Source: Naegleria gruberi (lineage: Eukaryota). Taken from it: a stretch of 64,000 nt of DNA. The position numbers and the translations under genes were made by a program. Every line of letters begins with the position of its first letter. Within the stretch, counting starts at the first letter, position 1. This document shows, in pieces, positions 31,573 to 64,000 of this stretch. Location of the stretch: the NCBI GenBank assembly GCA_000004985.1, contig GG738892.1, one strand, 5' to 3'. The notes beneath the pieces were generated by a model. The model did no database searches, had not been told where the DNA came from, and saw nothing but the letters and a program-made list of their open reading frames with translations.

Positions 31573-32577
31573 TTGATGAAGACAAAAACAGAAGAGTTTC
31601 AACATGATTACAATGAAAATGATCAATTGTATTATCATGATCTTTTAAATCTAACTCCGAATGAATTCTTAGCCAAATATCATCACAATAATAGTAATAA
31701 CAATAATACAACAACAACATGCAATGAAAGTGTTAATTTACAAGTAGAACAAGAACATCCAGAAAGCAAATCCAACGTTTTTATTTCCTCCGATGTAATG
31801 TGTTATATCATCATGACCTATCTAGATTGGAAAACAATATTTACAAGTTGTTTATTGGTGAATAAGGAGTTTTTCAGAAGAATTGCCAATAATCGTCAGC
31901 TTTTTATTCAATTATTTAATGAATTATTTGTGATGGATCAGAAAATGATTGATAGTATGACAAGTAGATCGACATTTAAAAAAACTTTAACTAGTAATAA
32001 TAATTTCATTGTAAATGGAGGTATTGGAATACCAAATGAGCATTATCACATTTGGAGAGATGGTTACAATAGCTATTTATATGCAACTGGTAAGAGATTT
32101 AAGCAATCTTTACAAAAGCATCATGTCAATAATTCGATAATGACTGATGCCAAATTGAGATTAATTAGAGAAAAGTGGAATACTGCCATTTCTGGAAAAA
32201 GCCAACAAAAGAAAAATCAAGTGAGATCTAAAAGGGATGAGAATAAATCCTTGTTAAATCTCATCAAGAAGATTATTAAGGATCGATTATTTATGAGAAA
32301 GTACTTTGATGGTGATAGGTTTAAATCTAAGAGATTTGAATTTCGTGAACAGATTTATTTTGAAAAGAAACTTCAAGTTCATGATTCTCTTCTTCGTTAT
32401 ACTGATCACAAGAAGTATTTAGCTAAATTGGAGGAAGCCAAGAAATTGTACAACAATCAAGACACATTGGAGAAACAAATTGAAAGTTTAATTCATTCTG
32501 AATATGAAAAGCCAGAGATTGAGGAGATTATAATTGGAGATTTACATGACAATAGTGGACCAACTGATCTATTTCTN
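31573..32577 (+). CDS. F-box-like protein, 5' part only. The ORF runs into the assembly gap, so it is incomplete.
   Basis: An F-box-like segment ISSDVMCYIIMTYLDWKTIFTSCLLVNKEFFRRI follows a poly-N/T low-complexity N-terminus. The ORF is open up to the N run. An in-frame coding-like tail appears after the gap (33344..33460) and may belong to the same gene. Confidence 0.4.
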
Positions 32578-33343
32578 NNNNNNNNNNNNNNNNNNNNNNN
32601 NNNNNNNNNNNNNNNNNNNNNNNNNNNNNNNNNNNNNNNNNNNNNNNNNNNNNNNNNNNNNNNNNNNNNNNNNNNNNNNNNNNNNNNNNNNNNNNNNNNN
32701 NNNNNNNNNNNNNNNNNNNNNNNNNNNNNNNNNNNNNNNNNNNNNNNNNNNNNNNNNNNNNNNNNNNNNNNNNNNNNNNNNNNNNNNNNNNNNNNNNNNN
32801 NNNNNNNNNNNNNNNNNNNNNNNNNNNNNNNNNNNNNNNNNNNNNNNNNNNNNNNNNNNNNNNNNNNNNNNNNNNNNNNNNNNNNNNNNNNNNNNNNNNN
32901 NNNNNNNNNNNNNNNNNNNNNNNNNNNNNNNNNNNNNNNNNNNNNNNNNNNNNNNNNNNNNNNNNNNNNNNNNNNNNNNNNNNNNNNNNNNNNNNNNNNN
33001 NNNNNNNNNNNNNNNNNNNNNNNNNNNNNNNNNNNNNNNNNNNNNNNNNNNNNNNNNNNNNNNNNNNNNNNNNNNNNNNNNNNNNNNNNNNNNNNNNNNN
33101 NNNNNNNNNNNNNNNNNNNNNNNNNNNNNNNNNNNNNNNNNNNNNNNNNNNNNNNNNNNNNNNNNNNNNNNNNNNNNNNNNNNNNNNNNNNNNNNNNNNN
33201 NNNNNNNNNNNNNNNNNNNNNNNNNNNNNNNNNNNNNNNNNNNNNNNNNNNNNNNNNNNNNNNNNNNNNNNNNNNNNNNNNNNNNNNNNNNNNNNNNNNN
33301 NNNNNNNNNNNNNNNNNNNNNNNNNNNNNNNNNNNNNNNNNNN
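32578..33343. other. Assembly gap (766 N).
   Basis: An uninterrupted run of n characters. All ORFs in the track containing X runs are artefacts of this gap. Confidence 0.99.
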
Positions 33344-33738
33344 TACATGGACCCCTTTCACATGGAAAATATTGTGGAAATATTTGATAGACTTGGAATT
33401 GTTCTGGATGTGTATTATTATGAAAGGTATAAAATAGATGAGTATGTTTTCGATTGGTAAAATACGCAATCTATCGAAATGAAAATAATAAAACCAAATC
33501 TTTGTAACAGTATTGACAAATTTCGTTGATTACCACTGTAAAAAATCGTATATGGTAGAAGCTCACTCAACATATTCTTCATCCAAAAGGCTGGGGTTGA
33601 ATGCTGCCTTTTAGGTCATGGACTTTATTGAACTCTTGTCCATTTAAAAACTTGTTTACTCGGTAATTTATTACAGAATTCTCCTGAACAAAATAATGAG
33701 ATAGTGTAATTACATATTTTACAGTCTGGTTTGGTTTT

Positions 33739-35347
33739 TTATTGAATATGTTGGCTTTCTTGGTAAGTTGGAGTAGCACTGAATCGTTGATAACCCTTAA
33801 TTACCTTATTGATAGCATCGAGCATATCCTTTTCGGAAACTGTCTTTCTTCTTGCTCGAATAGCAAACATACCAGCTTCTGTACAAACAGATCTAATTTC
33901 AGCACCTGTAGCATTAGGACACAAACGAGCCAATAATTCATATCTGATATCCTTGTCAACGTTCATATTCTTGGCGTGAATTCTGAAAATGTTAGTTCTT
34001 GCTTCAAGATCTGGAAGACCAAATTCAATCTTACGATCCAATCTACCAGGTCTCATCAAAGCAGGATCCAGAATATCTGGTCTGTTAGTAGCCATGAGAA
34101 CCTTAATATTACCACGAGCCTCAAAACCATCCAATTGGTTGACAATTTCAAGCATAGTTCTTTGAACTTCATTGTCACCACCAGCACCATCGTCAAAACG
34201 AGTACCACCAATAGCATCAACTTCATCAAAGAAAATAATACAAGCTTTACGTTGACGAGCCATTTGGAACAATTCTCTTACCATACGAGCGCCTTCACCG
34301 ACATATTTTTGAACCAATTCAGATCCAATAACACGAATAAAGGTAGCATCGGTTCTGTTAGCAACAGCTCTAGCAAGCAATGTTTTACCAGTACCTGGTG
34401 GACCATAGAGCAAGACTAATTTTTCAATTAAAGTAAAAACTCAAATAGTGACACTTACCTCCTTTTGGTGGGTCAATACCAAGACCTTCGAATTTTTCTG
34501 GATGGAGAAGTGGTGTCTCAACAACTTCACGGATTTTATCAATTTGCTCCTTAGATCCACCAATATCATTATATGTAATATCTGGTTTTTCTTCCACAGT
34601 CATCATTGTAACACTGGCATCAATTTTTGGAGGGAGTGGAATACGAATTTGATATTTTGTACGATCAACACCAATACGCATACCTTCTTCAATATCTGTT
34701 GGTGCTACGTTTTCTCCTAATCCTACAACATATTTAGCAATTTGACGAACATTGATGAGGTACTTTGGTTCCTCTTCATCATCATCAATAATTTTTGTAC
34801 ATCTAGCAACTTGCAATGGCATTTCATGTTGAAGAGTTGCTTTATCTTGTTGAATATCCCAAAGACTTGGATTTGCCAAGCCAGTATCAGATTCCTTTAC
34901 ACCACATAATTCATTTACTTCTTGTACCATTTTCTTAAGGCCATCTTCTGTTTCTTTTCTATGATATTGTTGATTCAATAATTATAAAATTGATCCAAAT
35001 TAATCCGAACAATAAAATTGTAGCAAGTTGATCAGGTTGTAAATCATCATTTTCAGTCATTAATGTTAGTGTTATGAGTTATTGTTATTAACGAAAATAT
35101 AGTAGATATACATTATTATACAATATAAGTAATATGTTAAGATTGTACAAAATCTAAGCTACTTTGTTTTGAAGCTAGCGACTTACATTTTTCCAGAGTA
35201 TGGTCCTTGTCCATATCGTTTAATCAATTTAATTTCTTCGGCATCCAATGGATTTATAGGTGTATCTTTCTTTTCATCTTCCTTGTTATCACTTGATTCT
35301 GGTTTCTTTTCCTCTGGTTTCTTATTGTCTTGTTCTTGTTGAGACAT
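33739..35347 (-). CDS. PSMC2: 26S proteasome regulatory subunit 7 (Rpt1, AAA-ATPase), 3 exons.
   Basis: Minus-strand exons are 35187..35347, 34459..34958 and 33739..34415, with introns of 228 and 43 nt. The protein is near-identical to human PSMC2 over long stretches ([91 protein letters not shown]-terminal KFSATP). The exon junctions reproduce human YSRQIKQVEDD (ours YSGKIKETEDG) and PPKGVLL.GPPG. Confidence 0.9.
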
Positions 35348-35513
35348 TTTTTGATTTTGTGTTGTATGGTGTGTTTGAAGTTAAGTGCTAAAAATAAAAT
35401 TGTGTTTCCGTATTTTTAGTCTTCTGCATGATCCAAAGCTAACATCAGCTGATTAGAAAACAAAATGTTGATGATGGATTTGTAATAAGATTGAATTCAT
35501 TTATTGTTTGATT

Positions 35514-37801
35514 TTAATCATAGTCATTGAAACTTTGTTCCTCATTTTCAAAGGATCCAAGTATTTGCTCCAATTCTTCACTTGGCATGAATACTTCACT
35601 GCCATAAGTTGGTGGAATATTTGTCACGGTTGGAAGAAAGTTATGTTGTAAATGTTGTGGATTAATATCAGCAAAGGATGGTGGTAAATGAGTTTGATTG
35701 ATCATATTTACATCAAATGAATGTTGTTGGGATTGGATTGAATTATTTCTCATAGAAGATGCTTGAACACTGATAGTGTTACAAATTTGGGAAAGAAGTT
35801 CTGATACAGAGGGATCATTAAGCGTATTATTTGTTGGATTGATGGGAATAAATGCTTGTTGAGGTGATTGGAATTCTCCAGATGAGCTAGAACTAGTGTA
35901 CGGTGATGAGGTTGAGGAAGAGGATGAAGACATGATTTCTTCAAATCTTGGAGGTTGAGGATTAACATTTCCAAATGGTAAGTTAGGATTCATAGTTGGT
36001 GCTGTTTGAGTGTTAATTACAGGTTGTTGGGTAGGTGGTTGTTGTCTCTTTGCAATTTGGGATGTTAATTCCTCAATTGAATTGACAGTATTGGTTCCTT
36101 CTATTACTTCTGCTTGTTCTTTCATAATTATTCCACAAAACTTGTTAACTCTTCCATATCTTGTTCCTAGTATTTTCAAAGCTCTTAATCCTTTAGCTAC
36201 ATAATCGTAATAGTCAATACCCTCTGCTAAATTAACTCGTTTTCCAACTCTTATCATTCTAATTATTGACAAGTGAACTTTACAAGCGCCAGCCACAACA
36301 CTGGTTAAGGCTACAGGTACAACTGGGAATGTTTCTTTTGTAGTTTCATCAATAATCTTGTTGGCAGATACTTCAATTAAGTGACCTCGAATACCAGCCT
36401 CAATTAAAATTCTCATTCGAGAACCATGATAGACCATACTGTCAGTAATGGTGGCTAATTCTCGTTGTTCAGGAGTAAACGAAAATGTTTGATTGTGAAG
36501 AGTAAGGAATGAACAAACGCTATCTAGTAATCCAAGATAACTAATGACGTTTTGAGGAGTAATTTTCTGTTTAGCAATTGTCATATATTCCTCTGGCATT
36601 TGTCTACCAGTGGCATATCTATAAATTAATGTCAGTCTTGTACACATGAAATGTTCATCTTCAGTTGAGTGATAATTTTGTGAATCTATACTCAATCGTG
36701 TAACTGTTTTAACCTTGTCCAAATTTTTCATTTCAGGTGTCAAATTATCATGATCCAACAAGTTCTTTTCTTTGAAATAGTAATCTACATTATTTAAATA
36801 GAATCTTGCTCTACTATCATCTCCTTCTCCTGCAAAAAAGTAACTAATGTAATTAAATGTACTAACTACAAAGAAATCGTCACACTTATCGAATAGGGAT
36901 GATAAAAGTTGTTTTGAAATATTGATATCTTCCATAGCTCGTTCTCGTCTTCCTAATCGTTGTTCAACAAGGGCTTGAATAGAAAATACTAAAGCCATCA
37001 ATTCTGTATTATTATATGGATTTTCTGTAAAGAGAAAATCTTCCAAGACTTTTCTTCCAACAACAGGATGCCCTCCTGAAACAATATTGAAATAAGAATC
37101 AATAGTATTAATTTTCAAAAATTGTTTGTAGAGAGAGTAATTCTCGCTTAATAAATTATTCAATGTTGATGGAATGAGCATTGTTAATTTCTTTCTTAAT
37201 TCAAAATCTTGTTCTGGATTTGTAGGAACAGGATATGGATCTTTTCTTTGAGAGTATTTCAATCTACTTCCTTGTATTTCATTCTCCGAACTTATTAATA
37301 AATTACTTGCTTGATTTTGAGAAATTGCCAATTGATTTGTTGATGATCCTGGTGCTCCTGTATCCTTCTTCTTTTTGTTTTTACCTCCTCTAATTCTTCC
37401 TTTCTTTTTTGGTTCTCTATATATACATTCTCTTCCTCTTAGTTGGCATTCACTGCAAATTGGTAATTTCTATTTAAATAATAATAATTAATATTAATTT
37501 CAAAAGTATGCAATTTATACTTACCTTGTCACACTACACAATGATAAATTAATAATCATACAAGTTAAATTCCTTACCTTTTTATGCTAAACAATAAATA
37601 AATTAATAATCAATTAATTGATAAAATCCTTACCATACTTCTACAAGTTGCACAAGCAATAGGATGATATGAAAAATTTGGATCTCTTGGTGTATCATCA
37701 TTATCAAATTCGTCATCATCATCAAAATCATTAGCTTGTTTTCCAACAAGAGATTCTGAGCCGAAAGTTGACATCGGATTGAATTCTCCAGATGAACTCA
37801 T
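35514..37801 (-). CDS. Gal4-type Zn(II)2Cys6 binuclear-cluster transcription factor with a fungal-type middle homology region, 4 exons including two proposed 9-nt microexons.
   Basis: Minus-strand exons are 37634..37801, 37578..37586 (cataaaaag = HKK), 37525..37533 (tgtgacaag = CDK) and 35514..37469. The spliced product reads CATCRSMHKKCDKKLPICSECQLRGREC, which is exactly C-x2-C-x6-C-x6-C-x2-C-x6-C. Each microexon is flanked by an AG acceptor and a GTAAG donor. The downstream 605-aa ORF carries Gln/Pro/Ser-rich activation-like tails. Confidence 0.65.
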
Positions 37802-58003: not shown

Positions 58004-60532
58004 TTAATCATCGTTCTTACCAAAGGTTTCAAAGCTGAATGGACGGAAGAGAGAACCAGTACCCTTGAAGAACTTGTTTTGGAATTCGACCCAAGTCAAT
58101 CTCAAAGCGTGCAAGAAAGCAGACAAAGATTCCATGACAAGCAAGACACCAATGGTCATACCGAACCAGAGAGCGAAAACAAAGAAAACACCAACACCAC
58201 TGTGTACAACGGCAGTTTCAACTTCTGGCATGCTTTCAAGTTGGTTAAGAATGAGACCAATGGTCATTTGCCAAAAGACTTCAGCAAGCTGAGCGTGAGC
58301 AAGTGACAAGGCCCACAAACGCAAGTATGAGGCAGTGTTAGAAACAGTACCCAAAACATATTCAATAGTGTGAATAAGTTGCTTAATGAACAATTCAGAG
58401 AATGGTTCCATTTCAGCATGACCTTCACCATGAGTATGAGCAACGTTATCGTGACCATCAGTACCATCCAAAATAGCAACGTGGTGGGATTCATCACTGT
58501 TAGAATTGACAACTTCAGCATCATCAACCTTACGGTGCTTGAACTTTCTCTTTTGTTTGAGGTATTCAGCAATTGGCTTTGGAATCAAGAGAATTGGAAC
58601 TGAGATAGCAGTAATAAGCAATAAAGCCATTTGAGCATAAGATTGTCTAGCTTGAGCTTCAGCAACGTCACCACCATAGTAGAACATTGGAGGTTGAGAC
58701 ATCTTCCAAGGACTCAAGAAATAATCAGTCATCATTGGCAAGATTTGAGGAGGATCAAATTTACCGCTGTGAACTTCATCACCCCAGTTAACACACCACT
58801 TGTAGACGATCAAAACACACATATAACCGAAAGTACACCACAAAATGAGGACTTCAGGAATGAATTCAACAAAGATATCCAAAAAGTGGCCGAATTGAAT
58901 CATGTTAGCCAAAGCAAAGAAGAGACCAATACTCATGTGACCGACACCGAAAATGACGGACATCTTCATCTTAATAGAGTTATAGAACAACAACTTGTTT
59001 GAGGTATGGAACCAAGCTGGATCAACACCAAATGGATAAGTTCTACCAATCTTTTCACCAACGTGTTCAGAGTTGAATTCATAAGCAGATGGGAAAATAT
59101 CGACAGCCAAACCTAAACCGTCATTGTAGAGGAAACCAGTATAAATAGAGAACAAGCCCATCAACACTAAAATATATCTACCTTGGAAGACCATGGCAAG
59201 CAATTCACTGTTTTCAGCGATTGGCTTCAACTTCTTTTCAAAGACAACCATAGCAATGGCAGCAGCAGCCAAGAGAATACCGTGACCAAAGTCACCAAAC
59301 ATAACAGCGAAGAGGAAAGGGAAAAGAATGACAGCAGCAACAGCAGGGTTCATTTCCTTGTAATCTGGAATACCATATGAGTTGACAATTTGTTGGAAAA
59401 CGTCAGTAAACTTGTTGGTTTCAAAGTAAGTTGGAGGAGTTTCAGTAGGTTGTACAATATCACAAATGGATGGAACTTGAGCATTGGAAGCAAGTCTAGC
59501 TTCTTCCATTTCTCTCTTGACATTTTCAAAGTTCTTTTCAGCAGCCCAACCAACAGCAACAACTGAACCCTTAATGTCATAGTTGAAAAGATTGAGTGTG
59601 TGGAAAATAGCCTTTTCCTTGTGGACTCTTTCCTTCCATCTTGGGAGGTTGACAGAAATCTTACTCAAAATATCAACAACACGAAGCTTTGAGCTTTCAA
59701 TAGTAGTATCTAATTCGTTAATCTTTTGTTGAACAGATCTTTGAGCACCAGCAACATCATCTTCTGGGAAATCGTGAATAGAAGCACCCAAAGCTTCACA
59801 GACCTTCTTGACCTTTTCCTTTGCAGAGGAGGCACCAAAGAAAACAGTGAAAACACTCTTTTCAATAGATTTACCACTCTTGGCATCAAAAAGTGGAGTT
59901 GGAATTTCAACCATTCTTGGTACAACGTTACCACGAGTACTACGATAAATCAACATCAAGAAGGTGGAAATCTTTTCACGTGGAATGACACCAGTCAAAT
60001 AACCAAGGGAAGAACCTCTAGAAACCATCAAACCACTTTCGCTATCACCAGAGTAACTTTCTTCGTCACCCTTGAAAAATTGGGCGGCCAAGTTGAGGAC
60101 ATAGCTATATTCTTCAGCCTTGTTCTTTTCAGCAACCATTTGATCCAAATTTCCAGACAAATCACGGAGTTCCTTTTCATGTTGAGAAAAGTCTCTTTCA
60201 AAACTGTCCAAAACATTGCCGTATTCATTAGTTTCTTCATCATTAAAATCGGCTCCTTCAGAGAATTTAACTTCAGACTTTTCAATTTGGTCTTCAAAGA
60301 AACGAATAATTCTGTCCAATTCTTCGCAACGCTTGACTTCGTTAGCGAATTGTCTTTGGAAAGCGTTCAAATGGGAAGACAAATCTTTAAATTCGACATA
60401 GCCCAATTCACCCAAACGTTCAACAGTTTGGTGAGCAGCTTCACGTTGCATGGTCATTTCGAGAAGGACCATGTTCTCGCTACGCCACATTGATGAGCCT
60501 TTTGTTCCCGCGATAAGATGGGAAGTAGCCAT
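58004..60532 (-). CDS. ATP6V0A: V-type proton ATPase 116-kDa subunit a (V0 sector).
   Basis: The 842-aa single-exon ORF has the N-terminus MWRSENMVLLEMTMQREAAHQTVERLGELGYVEFKDL (human [41 protein letters not shown]). Its C-terminal half has multiple TM helices, including the conserved RLWALSLAHAQL arginine-containing helix. Confidence 0.9.
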   Translation of the reverse strand: MATSHLIAGTKGSSMWRSENMVLLEMTMQREAAHQTVERLGELGYVEFKDLSSHLNAFQRQFANEVKRCEELDRIIRFFEDQIEKSEVKFSEGADFNDEETNEYGNVLDSFERDFSQHEKELRDLSGNLDQMVAEKNKAEEYSYVLNLAAQFFKGDEESYSGDSESGLMVSRGSSLGYLTGVIPREKISTFLMLIYRSTRGNVVPRMVEIPTPLFDAKSGKSIEKSVFTVFFGASSAKEKVKKVCEALGASIHDFPEDDVAGAQRSVQQKINELDTTIESSKLRVVDILSKISVNLPRWKERVHKEKAIFHTLNLFNYDIKGSVVAVGWAAEKNFENVKREMEEARLASNAQVPSICDIVQPTETPPTYFETNKFTDVFQQIVNSYGIPDYKEMNPAVAAVILFPFLFAVMFGDFGHGILLAAAAIAMVVFEKKLKPIAENSELLAMVFQGRYILVLMGLFSIYTGFLYNDGLGLAVDIFPSAYEFNSEHVGEKIGRTYPFGVDPAWFHTSNKLLFYNSIKMKMSVIFGVGHMSIGLFFALANMIQFGHFLDIFVEFIPEVLILWCTFGYMCVLIVYKWCVNWGDEVHSGKFDPPQILPMMTDYFLSPWKMSQPPMFYYGGDVAEAQARQSYAQMALLLITAISVPILLIPKPIAEYLKQKRKFKHRKVDDAEVVNSNSDESHHVAILDGTDGHDNVAHTHGEGHAEMEPFSELFIKQLIHTIEYVLGTVSNTASYLRLWALSLAHAQLAEVFWQMTIGLILNQLESMPEVETAVVHSGVGVFFVFALWFGMTIGVLLVMESLSAFLHALRLTWVEFQNKFFKGTGSLFRPFSFETFGKNDD

Positions 60533-60775
60533 ATTGTTGTTTGTATTTTTTTTAGATAAGAAAAAATATTTTATTATTTTTTATTGTAAACGGAGTTGGA
60601 TCATGTTTAGAAAAGCTGCCTGTTTTTGTGTCTCCGGCCCTTGCTAATAATAAAAATCTAATACTTTTCCAAATACTTTCAATTAATCAGTGGATGGCTC
60701 CATTGAAATTGTTTTAAATCTTAGTACTGTAGATAATTCAACAATTTGACATGTTTTGATGGAGTAACAGGTCAA

Positions 60776-61606
60776 TCATTGTCTATTTCTTCTAAGCCAA
60801 TCGTTTTGTGGAATGGCAAGTGGATTGAGATTCTTATCCACCTCTGCAATATGTTGCAATGAACGATGATAAACATAGGCAGTGATTGGATTTTGAGAAG
60901 ATTTTTCAATTAGCACACATTCATCTGAATTAGTTTCCATTACTTTCTTATCATAGGTTTCTTTACAGACTGGATAGGCATGCACTGCAGTTCTATCGTA
61001 CACTAATTATATTTCAATCACATCCATTCCATTAAAAATCATCCAATAATATTTGAACAAACTTACTCGATGGATATTCCTCAATTTCATCAGCAACAAT
61101 TAACAATTTCTTCAAAATTCTCTTGCACAGGTTCACTCACTGAAATAATATATCCGTAAATTCTATCATTCGGATCGGAAGTGAAAACAGCAACCGGATC
61201 TTTTCAATTATTAAATATTCAATATATTTAACTTTAAAAACCTACAATCGGAAAAGTACATTTTAACTCCCTCTATAAATCCAAACTCTGCCAATGCTTT
61301 ATAGGAATCTGGATTATTGAATGAATGTGTCCAAGCTGCCTTTGAGTCGTCATCAGGTCTCAAAGTTCCATACACGAATAAATTCACAACATTTTGTCCA
61401 TTTGGTTGTGCTGACATTTTTTCAAAGAATTTAAAATCTTTAACAAATTGACTGGGAAAATAAGATTTAAATAGTAAATGATTGTTATCTGGATTATTAG
61501 GATTGTTTTCAAGATGTTGAAGTCCTTCATTATTTGTTAATTTGTTGGGAAACTCTAAGATGTGAAAGAATGCAATAGCAAGAGCAAAACAAGTAAAAAA
61601 CTTCAT
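60776..61606 (-). CDS. Gamma-glutamyl cyclotransferase-like (AIG2/GGACT-fold) protein with an N-terminal signal peptide, 3-4 exons. One junction is problematic.
   Basis: Minus-strand exons are 61243..61606, 61141..61199, 61067..61121 and 60776..61002. The protein has the signature LFVYGTLRPDDD and parallels human GGACT (PYPLVIAG / DYPVAVFT; LRFLDDFE / LLIVADEIEE; YQRTV / YDRTA). Joining 61141..61199 to 61067..61121 needs either a 19-nt GTGAGT...AG intron (61122..61140) or a 1-nt frameshift at an aaa run near 61107-61109. Confidence 0.55.
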
Positions 61607-61889
61607 CAACTTACAAATTGAAGAGTTGAGAGATGCTTTTAATGTTAAAATTACAATAGAGGGTCTACCAATGAAGATTTTCTTCAAATTGAAACTTTAC
61701 AATAATTCCAACTCAATCTCAATTAGATTCCAACATATTTAAATGTATTCAACCTCTCCAGAATAACGTGTCCCAAAATCACGTAACCATTTCATTGGTT
61801 CCTTCATGAAACGTGAAACCTCTTACAAAAACTCAATTATTTAAAAACGTGACAATAAAAAACTGAAACGTGATTTCCATAAGAAAAAA

Positions 61890-64000
61890 ATGCTGTCATT
61901 GAAAACAAGCCAATCCGAAACTTTTTCTCCAACGTTGCCTCCTTCGGCTTCAGACTCCTCCTCCTTATCATCCATGTTGCCAGATATTGAAAACTGGAGT
62001 AATATGGATGTGAGTATGATTCTTGTCAATTCGGGAGAAGTTTGGGTGGTTAGGGATCAAAGTGAATGGACAAAGTTGATCAATGGAATACACGGTGAAG
62101 AAAAAAAGTGTTTGGTTGTATTGGATTCGAATGGAAAGTCTGTAAAGAAGGTGAGTGACAATTGATCAATATATTTAAAGGGTTTAATGTGTTTAGTTTG
62201 ATCAATCAACAATTAATTATTTGATTTGTAAAGGAAAGTTAGAAGATAAAGAAAATTCATCAAGTGAAGTAATGAGGGGATTGGAATTATTTAATGAATA
62301 TGTACAGTACTCTATCAGGAAATTTGAGAACTCGAGAATTAACTTGAACTCCAGATTGGAAACCCTTCAGAAAATGAATTTCAAAGAGAAATATCATAAC
62401 TTTAAATTGGAACAATCATTGAATGTTGATTTCTCAAAAATTGTTAATGAAATGCAGGAAAAGCTAAGGCTTGTAAGAGAAAAAACCAGACTGATTGTTG
62501 TGGAAATGAATTCTTTTCTAGCTCCAAACTTGAGAAAGTCTATTGATGGTTTATCAATTCAAGAGAGGATTGAGTACTTTGATAATCTTATCAATAATTT
62601 CACACAAATTAAGAAACTGTTCAAAAATCCATTTGACGACATGACAAAAAGATTGTTTGATGAATTATTGCTATTTGATGGGTTTGAACCTTATTATCGT
62701 CTTACATTACAAGAATGTTCTAGAATTAATAATGTAAAGAGAGAGCTTGAGAATTATTTACAACAAGCACGAGAAGAGGAACAGGAAAATCAAGCACAAT
62801 TCAAAGAATTCATAGGTATAGAGAAATTCAAGTATGTGCTAAAGATTGCTCCAAGTATTGTGGACTACATCTCAAACGAGACAAACTCCTCCATGGAGGA
62901 TGTAGTAGAAATGGCTTCTTCCATCCAATCTGTTACAAACATTCAAGGAGAAAACACACTTTATTCTTTAGAAGAAGAGGAAATGGATGAAGATCAACAA
63001 TTAAAAGACCAAGAAATACAAGATTTGAGATCACAAATTGAAGGTTTAAACAATCGAATTGCCGAATTGAACAACCAGGTTAATGGGTGTGATGTAAAGA
63101 ATAACTCATTAATTATTGGGAATGTTGAGTTTACTAAAATGTTTGAAAAAGAGATGCAAGACATGACAGACAAATTTAACAAAGAAATTGAATGTTTGAA
63201 AATGGAGAAGGAAGAAATCGAGAAAAATATGAAGGAGGAGAAGGAAAATATGTTACAACAACTTGAAATTGAGAAGCAACAACGCCAAGATTATGAAAAA
63301 CAGATCAAGGCATTACGTGATGATGTCGAATATTTGAAAAACGAGAAAAAGAATGAAAATAATAAGGCCAACAAAGAGATAACTGGATTGAATGAGCAAT
63401 TGAAAACTGAGAAAGAACAAATTTCCAAGTTAATGAAGCAACTATCCTTCCTTAAAGAAGAATCTGAAACAGAAGAGGCTAAATATAATGCAAATATTAA
63501 GGAACAAAAGGAAAAGTATCAAACATTGTTGACAGATCTAAACGAAATTCAGCAGAAGTTGGAGTCCAGCAAAGGAGAATGTACTGCTGTTAAATCTCAG
63601 TTGGAAGAAAATGCTGGAAAGTATTGTGAAAATATATCAAACCTTGAAGGTTTAATTGTAATGTTGAAGGATGAAATAAGGAATGATACACAAAACTATA
63701 ACGAATACCAGCAAAAATATTTTGACTCTAAAATTCTCTTGGAATCATTAGAAGTAAAACTATCTGAAAGGGTTGAAGAATTGAAAAAAGTGTATGATAT
63801 TAACAGTAATTTAGAATACCAATTAGGAGAAAGTAACCACGAAAAGGAGAAATTAATGGAAGATTTCAAAATATTACAGGATCAATTAGATATGAAACTC
63901 AGCATGTGTGTGGCAGAAAATTTAAATCTGGAAGAAAAGCTTAAAAATTTGGAAAATGAAAAGGAGCAATTATTGATAAGCTCATTTGTGGATCCACCAA
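61890..64000 (+). CDS. Long coiled-coil protein, 3' partial (runs off the window end), at least 2 exons.
   Basis: Exons are 61890..62150 and 62239..64000 or beyond, separated by an 88-nt intron with a GTGAGT donor. The second exon is open to the window end and is dominated by heptad-like E/K/L/Q-rich sequence (LKMEKEEIEKNMKEEKENMLQQLEIEKQQRQDYEKQIKAL...). Confidence 0.5.

What the first reader, a model, noticed from the sequence alone, without database searches (positions are those of the whole stretch)
61067..61243. GGCT-like gene needs either a 19-nt intron or a +1 frameshift
Two coding segments of the AIG2/GGACT-like gene (...DRIYGYIIS and LLIVADEIEEYPS) lie in different frames. They can be joined in two ways. 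One is removal of a 19-nt GTGAGTGAACCTGTGCAAG element at 61122..61140, which has a consensus GTGAGT donor and an AG acceptor. It gives a product the same length as human GGACT in this region. The other is a 1-nt slip in an AAA run (61107-61109). A 19-nt spliceosomal intron would be extraordinarily short. The alternative is an assembly indel or a pseudogene.
Basis: seen in the sequence. Interest (0 to 1): 0.5.

Follow-up and report, generated by a model that had tools for sequence, protein, structure and literature searches.

The report
One-base frameshift, not a tiny intron
The proposed 19-base intron in this Naegleria gruberi gene is ordinary protein-coding sequence, and the reading-frame break is one surplus base a few codons downstream, either a sequencing error or a very recent mutation.

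Summary
The window is Naegleria gruberi NEG-M. The gene (minus strand, 61417-60776) is the annotated AIG2/GGACT-like gene NAEGRDRAFT_71655.

The intron reading is not supported. N. lovaniensis, N. fowleri and two metagenome Naegleria-type sequences read the same stretch in one frame as coding sequence: GYIISVSEPEGENFEKLLKFADEIEEYP, against N. gruberi GYIISVSEPVQENFEE|LLIVADEIEEYP. N. lovaniensis has the same GTG AGT (Val-Ser) codons, so the "consensus donor" is conserved codons.

The exon between the two conserved real introns is 132 nt in N. lovaniensis, 129 nt in the metagenome species and 133 nt in N. gruberi. That is one surplus base, located within GAAA at 61110-61107.

Removing 19 nt, or the 31 nt used by the public model XP_002673240.1, gives a loop shorter than in all 21 homologues examined. 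Thirteen different GT..AG removals restore the frame, so a bridging GT-AG is expected by chance.

No independent N. gruberi data were reachable, so an assembly error and a real recent frameshift allele cannot be told apart. The finding is ordinary and of low interest. The useful by-product is that the public gene model is probably wrong.

The parts
60776..61417 (-). AIG2/GGACT-like gene of Naegleria gruberi NEG-M (NAEGRDRAFT_71655, XP_002673240.1, UniProt D2VRP2), from ATG to the TGA stop
   Evidence: Pfam PF06094 scores 40-44 bits. The public protein P0001 is identical to the 31-nt-spliced translation.
61246..61417 (-). Exon 1 (172 nt), encoding MSAQPNG...VYGTLRPDDDS...KMYFSD plus the first base of a Tyr codon
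   Evidence: It aligns with the orthologs.
61200..61245 (-). Real intron 1, 46 nt, GTAGGT...AAAAG, G+C 0.15, phase 1. Its position is conserved in N. lovaniensis (52 nt) and in the metagenome species (36 nt).
61067..61199 (-). A single middle exon of 133 nt that carries one surplus nucleotide. The orthologous exon is 132 nt in N. lovaniensis and 129 nt in the metagenome species.
   Evidence: codon-by-codon display of the three species
61122..61140 (-). The disputed 19-nt element GTGAGTGAACCTGTGCAAG. It is coding sequence: GTG AGT GAA CCT GTG CAA G = Val-Ser-Glu-Pro-Val-Gln plus the first base of a Glu codon. It is not an intron.
   Evidence: N. lovaniensis has GTG AGT GAA CCC GAA GGC G at the same place and reads it as VSEPEG. 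N. fowleri reads VSEPEG. The metagenome species reads VSNPEV. G+C is 0.53.
61110..61140 (-). The 31-nt pseudo-intron used by the public gene model to bridge the frame break. It deletes the conserved residues VSEPVQENFE.
   Evidence: P0001 equals candidate B. The resulting loop of 9 residues compares with 17-22 in all homologues.
61107..61110 (-). Site of the surplus nucleotide. The four bases GAAA stand where the orthologs have one codon (AAG Lys in N. lovaniensis, AAC Asn in the metagenome species). Deleting one A gives ...NFEELLIV.... Deleting the G gives ...NFEKLLIV..., which is closer to NFEKLLKF.
61090..61092 (-). The TGA stop reached if the sequence is translated as it stands. The product is then 93 aa and lacks the ADEIEEYP segment and everything after it.
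61003..61066 (-). Real intron 2 (labelled intron 3 in the analysis), 64 nt, GTAAGT...TTAG, G+C 0.23, phase 1. Its position is conserved in N. lovaniensis (83 nt) and in the metagenome species (91 nt).
60776..61002 (-). Last exon, still open and conserved in the correct frame (YDR..., YVYHR, NDWLRRNR)
58004..60532 (-). V-ATPase subunit a gene (EFC40495.1), the downstream neighbour. It serves as the synteny anchor showing that the compared loci are orthologous.

Best explanation
The 19-nt element is ordinary coding sequence inside a single 133-nt middle exon. It encodes Val-Ser-Glu-Pro-Val-Gln.

The two halves of the gene are out of frame because the sequence carries one surplus nucleotide within GAAA at 61110-61107, in the context GAAGAAATTG. 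The ancestral exon, still found in the other Naegleria lineages, is 132 nt and encodes ...GYIISVSEPxxENFE(K/E)LLxxADEIEEYP....

Shown: the element is homologous to coding sequence in the orthologs, the surplus base lies within four positions, and the rest of the gene is intact.

Inferred: the intended product is a 176-aa GGACT-like protein. The surplus base is either a consensus error in the draft assembly or a very recent frameshift allele of strain NEG-M. I put these at roughly 55:45 and the tools cannot separate them. If the base is real, translation stops at TGA 61092-61090. The resulting 93-aa fragment lacks the ADEIEEYP segment, which in GGACT family enzymes carries the catalytic Glu (from memory, not tested here).

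The 31-nt intron in the public model XP_002673240.1 is a gene-predictor device that steps over the frame break.
For: 1. Organism and gene are identified. P0001, 'predicted protein [Naegleria gruberi]', equals the 31-nt-spliced translation. The neighbouring V-ATPase ORF is an exact match to EFC40495.1 of strain NEG-M.

2. Orthologs read the stretch in one frame. N. lovaniensis C9374_000086 reads RIYGYIISVSEPEGENFEKLLKFADEIEEYPEEYDR; its genome was annotated with RNA-seq-guided BRAKER1 (PMC6125883). N. fowleri FDP41_003238 is identical in this stretch, as is the ENA metagenome ORF P0083. A third Naegleria-level lineage, found in three metagenome assemblies (L001-L003), reads RIFGYILSVSNPEVNFPNFLQVADEIEAYPT.

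3. The loci are syntenic, with the V-ATPase a gene immediately downstream on the same strand.

4. At the DNA level, N. lovaniensis has the same TCA GTG AGT GAA CC at the 'donor', with a synonymous CCT/CCC change. The exon lengths are 133, 132 and 129 nt.

5. The frameshift-corrected product has 19 residues between the conserved Gly and AD.IE, identical to N. lovaniensis and N. fowleri and within the 17-22 range of 18 other homologues. The 19-nt splice gives 13 and the 31-nt splice gives 9.

6. The two real introns have conserved positions, are 36-91 nt long in the three species and are AT-rich in N. gruberi (G+C 0.15 and 0.23). The element has G+C 0.53. The median N. lovaniensis intron is 80 bp.

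7. Thirteen GT..AG removals restore the frame.
Against: No N. gruberi reads, ESTs or second assembly could be reached, so splicing of the element is not directly excluded.

GT[AG]AGT hexamers are uncommon inside long open frames of this window (5 in 42.5 kb, and none in the V-ATPase gene). A strong donor-like site in coding sequence is therefore somewhat unusual, although N. lovaniensis carries the same one.

Pfam scores do not discriminate between the candidates: 44.4 bits (19-nt splice), 43.7 (frameshift-corrected) and 39.7 (31-nt splice).

The gene downstream of the break is fully intact. That fits an assembly error or a very recent mutation, but it would also fit a rescue mechanism.
Confidence: 0.9

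Rival explanations
1. A genuine 19-nt spliceosomal intron (61140-61122, GTGAGT...CAAG) is removed from the mRNA and gives a 170-aa protein reading ...GYIISRILKKLLIVADEIEEYPS....
For: It has a GTGAGT donor and an AG acceptor. Its removal restores the frame. It gives the highest Pfam score by a margin of 0.7 bits.
Against: The element is homologous to codons that are translated in N. lovaniensis, N. fowleri and two metagenome lineages. The product would replace the conserved VSEPxxENFE with the out-of-frame residues RILKK. Its loop of 13 residues is shorter than in all 21 homologues (17-22). Its G+C of 0.53 compares with 0.15 and 0.23 for the flanking introns. The verified introns of this gene in three species are 36-91 nt, and the plausible introns in the window are roughly 38 nt and above. 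From general knowledge, introns this short are known only where the whole intron population is tiny: Stentor, the Bigelowiella nucleomorph and Paramecium.
Confidence: 0.02
2. The public annotation is right. A 31-nt intron (61140-61110, GTGAGT...GAAG) is spliced out and gives the 166-aa protein XP_002673240.1.
For: It is the deposited model. It has GT-AG ends and restores the frame.
Against: The objections to the 19-nt intron all apply. It also deletes ten residues that are conserved across Naegleria (VSEPVQENFE). It leaves a 9-residue loop, the shortest of all, and has the lowest Pfam score, 39.7 bits. It is 5-7 nt shorter than the shortest conserved or plausible intron seen (36 nt in the metagenome ortholog, about 38 nt in this window). 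From general knowledge, tiny bridging introns are a familiar by-product of gene predictors that meet a frameshift.
Confidence: 0.03
3. The surplus base is real and the ribosome shifts +1 somewhere in the 47-nt overlap of the two frames (61136-61090). One possible site is the stop UGC-UGA-U, read as UGC-[U]-GAU in an antizyme-like way. This would make a full-length protein.
For: Any +1 shift inside the overlap gives a product of ortholog length. The downstream frame is intact. The frame-0 stop context UGA-U superficially resembles the antizyme shift site (from memory).
Against: None of the orthologs needs a shift, so there is no conserved recoding site. The residues that match the orthologs (LLIVA against LLKFA and FLQVA) are in the +1 frame already from 61106. 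This places the event at 61107-61110 and not at the stop. No slippery motif or stimulatory element is evident. To my knowledge, programmed +1 frameshifting has not been described in Naegleria.
Confidence: 0.02

Closest known systems
Frameshift-bridging pseudo-introns in automated eukaryotic gene models (draft-assembly indel or young frameshift allele)
   Same: A single-base frame break sits in an otherwise intact, conserved gene. The deposited model steps over it with a GT-AG 'intron' shorter than any conserved or plausible intron seen here, and this removes conserved residues.
   Different: Nothing material differs. It remains open only whether the surplus base is in the DNA of the strain or only in the consensus.
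Ultrashort spliceosomal introns (Stentor 15-16 nt, Bigelowiella natans nucleomorph 18-21 nt, Paramecium about 20-30 nt; from general knowledge)
   Same: The length is 19 nt, with GT...AG ends and a strong GTGAGT 5' site.
   Different: In those organisms the whole intron population is tiny. Here the neighbouring and orthologous introns are 36-91 nt and AT-rich. This element is comparatively GC-rich (0.53) and homologous to translated codons in sister species.
Programmed +1 ribosomal frameshifting (antizyme, Euplotes, yeast Ty1/EST3/ABP140; from general knowledge)
   Same: A +1 frame change is needed to make the full-length protein, and the frame-0 stop is UGA followed by U.
   Different: The frame break is not conserved in any ortholog. 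No recognisable shift site lies at the position where the frames actually switch.
GGACT / AIG2-like gamma-glutamyl(amine) cyclotransferase family (Pfam PF06094)
   Same: The gene product matches the family profile over its whole length and has the N-terminal YGTLR motif and the D/E-rich ...ADEIEEYP... segment.
   Different: It belongs to a protist subgroup with the motif FVYGTLRPDDDS(G/K)A.WT. This subgroup is also found in dictyostelids and in many environmental eukaryote contigs. The activity is untested.

Membership tests
Spliceosomal intron (19-nt or 31-nt element) | GT...AG termini with a donor consensus | tested here: met
   The 19-nt element is GTGAGT...CAAG and the 31-nt element is GTGAGT...GAAG. 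However, 13 GT..AG removals restore the frame, and the same GTGAGT occurs as Val-Ser codons in N. lovaniensis.
Spliceosomal intron (19-nt or 31-nt element) | The sequence is not part of the coding sequence of orthologs (no codon-level homology) | tested here: not met
   The element aligns codon for codon with translated sequence: VSEPEG in N. lovaniensis and N. fowleri, VSNPEV in the metagenome species.
Spliceosomal intron (19-nt or 31-nt element) | Length and composition within the range of the organism's introns | tested here: not met
   The two flanking introns are 46 and 64 nt with G+C 0.15 and 0.23. The orthologous introns are 36-91 nt. The element is 19 nt with G+C 0.53, or 31 nt with G+C 0.42. 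A rough survey of the window gives plausible introns of about 38 nt and above. The N. lovaniensis median is 80 bp.
Spliceosomal intron (19-nt or 31-nt element) | Removal from mature mRNA | not testable with these tools
   No N. gruberi transcript or read data could be reached. Exact look-ups of all candidate products found only the deposited model.
Programmed +1 ribosomal frameshift site | The frame break is conserved in orthologs | tested here: not met
   All four orthologous sequences are in a single frame.
Programmed +1 ribosomal frameshift site | A slippery or hungry-codon shift site at the point where the frames switch | tested here: inconclusive
   The switch is at GAA-GAA-A-TTG (61113-61104), which matches no shift motif I know. 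A UGC-UGA-U stop lies 15 nt downstream.
GGACT / AIG2-like (PF06094) | Profile match above Pfam's gathering score | tested here: met
   The three candidate products score 39.7-44.4 bits against a cut-off of 22.8. The orthologs carry PF06094.
GGACT / AIG2-like (PF06094) | Conserved N-terminal YGTL(R/K) motif and an acidic segment with the catalytic Glu | tested here: met
   VYGTLRPDD and ADEIEEYP are present and invariant across the Naegleria orthologs. The catalytic role of the Glu comes from knowledge of the family and was not tested.
Pseudogene (long-dead) | Multiple disabling lesions and loss of conservation downstream | tested here: not met
   There is only one lesion. The 93 codons after it stay open in the correct frame and keep the conserved motifs.

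The most novel reading that the evidence does not exclude
The surplus base is real in strain NEG-M, and the gene is rescued by 'intronization'. In this reading the pre-existing Val-Ser codons GTGAGT have been recruited as a 5' splice site, and a 19- or 31-nt micro-intron is spliced from at least part of the transcripts. It would be the shortest intron in an organism whose other introns, as far as seen here, are about 36 nt or longer, and a freshly born intron caught in the act.
Probability: 0.04. Interest if true: 0.75.

Novelty: not a real feature. Interest (0 to 1): 0.1.

Why it matters
As an intron the feature is not real, so nothing follows for splicing biology.

The practical value is curatorial. 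The deposited N. gruberi protein (XP_002673240.1, D2VRP2, also copied into EukProt) lacks ten conserved residues because a 31-nt pseudo-intron was used to step over a single-base frame break. The correct product is most likely the 176-aa sequence given here.

The case also shows that a consensus-looking GTGAGT...AG pair next to a frame break is weak evidence for a micro-intron. Thirteen GT-AG removals restore the frame in this one exon.

Tried and rejected
1. Independent N. gruberi evidence. I made exact look-ups of the 19-nt-spliced, frameshift-corrected (two variants) and truncated products, of the unspliced exon-1 and exon-4 ORFs with several start codons, and of the V-ATPase neighbour. Only the two deposited NCBI models exist in the collection, so an assembly error and a real mutation could not be separated.

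2. The first word-index homologue search returned only the N. gruberi model and one metagenome ORF. It missed N. lovaniensis and N. fowleri, which the exhaustive search and a profile search then found. Absence is therefore weak evidence.

4. Pfam scoring of the three candidate products does not discriminate between them.

5. Solved structures gave only marginal hits to mouse GGACT (E 0.1-0.2), too weak to settle the loop length.

6. The ORF-joining survey of window introns is noisy. Many donors have several possible acceptors, so it gives only a rough lower range of about 38-40 nt.

7. The 2010 N. gruberi genome paper is not held. I therefore do not quote its coverage, error rate or intron statistics.

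8. Branch-point inspection of the six orthologous introns gave no clear consensus against which to test the element.

9. Nuclear insertion/deletion RNA editing was considered and dismissed. Nothing points to it and I know of no precedent in Heterolobosea.

Full report
**What is there.** The finding lies on the minus strand of a 33% G+C eukaryotic window. A homologue search with the spliced translation returned 'predicted protein [Naegleria gruberi]' (P0001, 166 aa). This is EFC40496.1 / XP_002673240.1 / NAEGRDRAFT_71655 / UniProt D2VRP2. The neighbouring 842-aa ORF (58004-60532, minus strand) is an exact match to the V-ATPase subunit a of N. gruberi strain NEG-M. The window is therefore the published N. 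gruberi NEG-M assembly.

**Gene structure**:
- ATG at 61417
- exon 1, 61417-61246
- intron 1, 61245-61200 (46 nt, GTAGGT..AAAAG)
- exon 2, from 61199
- the disputed stretch
- exon 3, to 61067
- a second intron, 61066-61003 (64 nt, GTAAGT..TTAG)
- last exon, 61002-60776

The product matches Pfam GGACT/AIG2-like (PF06094) at 40-44 bits against a cut-off of 22.8.

**Check of the observation.** GTGAGTGAACCTGTGCAAG lies at 61140-61122 and the AAA run at 61109-61107. ...DRIYGYIIS and (R)ILKKLLIVADEIEEYPS are in different frames. Read straight through, the first frame gives VSEPVQENFEEIVNCC and stops at TGA 61092-61090. Removing the 19 nt, or skipping one base at 61107, each restores an open frame to the stop codon.

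A 31-nt removal (61140-61110, GTGAGT...GAAG) also works, and it is exactly what the deposited N. gruberi protein uses. In all, 13 different GT..AG removals within this exon restore the frame. A frame-restoring GT-AG pair is therefore what chance gives.

**What the orthologs say.** An exhaustive profile-free search with P0001 found P0003. This is the N. lovaniensis protein C9374_000086, from a genome annotated with RNA-seq-guided BRAKER1 (PMC6125883). A profile search added N. fowleri FDP41_003238 and an ENA metagenome ORF. The first search had already found a metagenome ORF, P0002, present in three assemblies (L001-L003).

In N. lovaniensis (L022) and in the metagenome species (L001-L003) the V-ATPase a gene lies immediately downstream on the same strand, as in the window. 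No genomic context was retrieved for the N. fowleri protein or for P0083. The V-ATPase proteins of N. gruberi, N. lovaniensis and the metagenome species are 77-79% identical pairwise, so these are three lineages at a comparable distance from one another.

All of these sequences read the disputed stretch in one frame:

| Source | Sequence |
|---|---|
| N. lovaniensis, N. fowleri, P0083 | RIYGYIISVSEPEGENFEKLLKFADEIEEYPE |
| metagenome species | RIFGYILSVSNPEVNFPNFLQVADEIEAYPT |
| N. gruberi, one base skipped | RIYGYIISVSEPVQENFEELLIVADEIEEYPS |

At the DNA level:

| Species | Codons |
|---|---|
| N. lovaniensis | TCA GTG AGT GAA CCC GAA GGC GAA AAT TTT GAA AAG TTA TTG AAA TTT GCT GAC |
| N. gruberi | TCA GTG AGT GAA CCT GTG CAA GAG AAT TTT GAA GAA A TTG TTA ATT GTT GCT GAT |

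The 'consensus donor' GTGAGT is the conserved Val-Ser codon pair, and CCT/CCC is a synonymous difference. The exon bounded by the two conserved introns is 132 nt in N. lovaniensis, 129 nt in the metagenome species and 133 nt in N. gruberi. The first frame matches the orthologs through AAT TTT GAA (to 61111). The second frame matches from TTG (61106). The surplus base is therefore one of the four bases GAAA at 61110-61107.

**Family-level check.** Seventeen more distant homologues were recovered from metagenome and metatranscriptome contigs (L004-L020). I aligned them with the candidates. The number of residues between the conserved Gly of the strand and the AD.IE motif is 17-22 in all of them. 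It is 18 in the metagenome ortholog and 19 in N. lovaniensis and N. fowleri. The frameshift-corrected N. gruberi product also has 19, the 19-nt splice gives 13 and the 31-nt splice gives 9. Both splice products fall outside the family range.

**Intron properties.** The two real introns of the gene keep their positions and phase in all three species. Their lengths are 46/52/36 nt and 64/83/91 nt, and they diverge freely in sequence. In N. gruberi their G+C is 0.15 and 0.23, against 0.29-0.37 for the exons. The 19-nt element has G+C 0.53 and the 31-nt element 0.42. A rough ORF-joining survey of the window suggests plausible introns of about 38-90 nt (noisy). The reported median for N. lovaniensis is 80 bp.

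**Interpretation.** The element is coding sequence, and the frame break is a one-base surplus relative to the ancestral exon. The rest of the gene is intact. The 93 codons after the break remain open in the correct frame and keep conserved motifs such as YDR, YVYHR and DWLRRNR. The lesion is therefore either absent from the organism, as a consensus error of the draft assembly, or very recent, as a frameshift allele of a heterozygous, long-cultured laboratory strain. Naegleria is described as mainly a heterozygous diploid (PMC9928731).

I could not separate these two cases. No N. gruberi reads, transcripts or second assembly are reachable with these tools. I put them at roughly 55:45. If the base is real, the as-is product is a 93-aa fragment lacking the ADEIEEYP segment.

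**Rivals.**
- **19-nt or 31-nt intron.** Either would have to be cut out of sequence that sister species translate. It would be shorter than every conserved or plausible intron seen here (36 nt and above), and it would yield a protein with an abnormally short loop. I give the two together about 5%.
- **Programmed +1 frameshift.** It has no conserved site, no orthologous precedent and no recognisable shift motif where the frames switch. A UGC-UGA-U stop 15 nt downstream is only a superficial antizyme-like resemblance. I give this about 2%.
- **Old pseudogene.** This is excluded by the intact downstream frame.

**Comparison with what is known.** This is the familiar situation of a frameshift in a draft eukaryotic assembly that a gene predictor has bridged with a tiny GT-AG 'intron'. 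It resembles true ultrashort introns (Stentor, the Bigelowiella nucleomorph, Paramecium; general knowledge) only in length and termini.

**Verdict.** Interest is low. The one useful outcome is that the public model XP_002673240.1 / D2VRP2 is probably wrong by a 10-residue deletion. The likely true product is MSAQPNG...GYIISVSEPVQENFE(E/K)LLIVADEIEEYPSMYDR...RRNRQ, 176 aa.

Noticed in passing
window 61418-61687 (minus strand): The reading frame of the GGACT-like gene stays open for about 90 codons upstream of the annotated ATG. An in-frame ATG near 61606 would add a hydrophobic N-terminus, MKFFTCFALAIAFFHILEF.... The N. lovaniensis and metagenome orthologs have in-frame stops 15 and 3 codons upstream of their ATG, and Pfam finds nothing. 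This is either chance or an N-terminal extension (signal anchor?) specific to N. gruberi.
   Followed up: partly
window 61110-61140 (minus strand): The deposited N. gruberi protein XP_002673240.1 / D2VRP2 (also in EukProt) is built with a 31-nt 'intron' that deletes ten residues conserved across Naegleria. The model probably needs correction.
   Followed up: yes
window 58004-61417; L001 3001-6328; L022 3001-6386: The adjacency of the GGACT-like gene and the V-ATPase subunit a gene, on the same strand, is conserved in three Naegleria-level lineages. The upstream neighbour differs. It is a Ras/protein-kinase gene in N. lovaniensis and the metagenome species. In N. gruberi it is a divergently transcribed gene of unknown function starting near 61890 on the plus strand, with no Pfam hit over 62197-63999.
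   Followed up: partly
window 60491-60532 (minus strand): The N. gruberi V-ATPase a model starts 14 residues (MATSHLIAGTKGSS) upstream of the point where both orthologs start (MWRSENMV / MSIWRSENMV). The true start may be Met15.
   Followed up: no
L004-L020 (metagenome/metatranscriptome contigs): A protist subgroup of GGACT-like proteins shares the motif FVYGTLRPDDDSGA.WT. Its members often have long Ser/Ala-rich N-terminal extensions. The subgroup is also represented in dictyostelids.
   Followed up: no
window 32001-36000: G+C dips to 0.27 here, against 0.31-0.38 in the rest of the window. This was not examined.
   Followed up: no
window, long open frames on both strands: Donor-like hexamers GT[AG]AGT are scarce inside open frames of at least 300 codons: 5 in 42.5 kb, and none in the 2.5-kb V-ATPase gene. 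This hints at selection against cryptic 5' splice sites in coding sequence.
   Followed up: no
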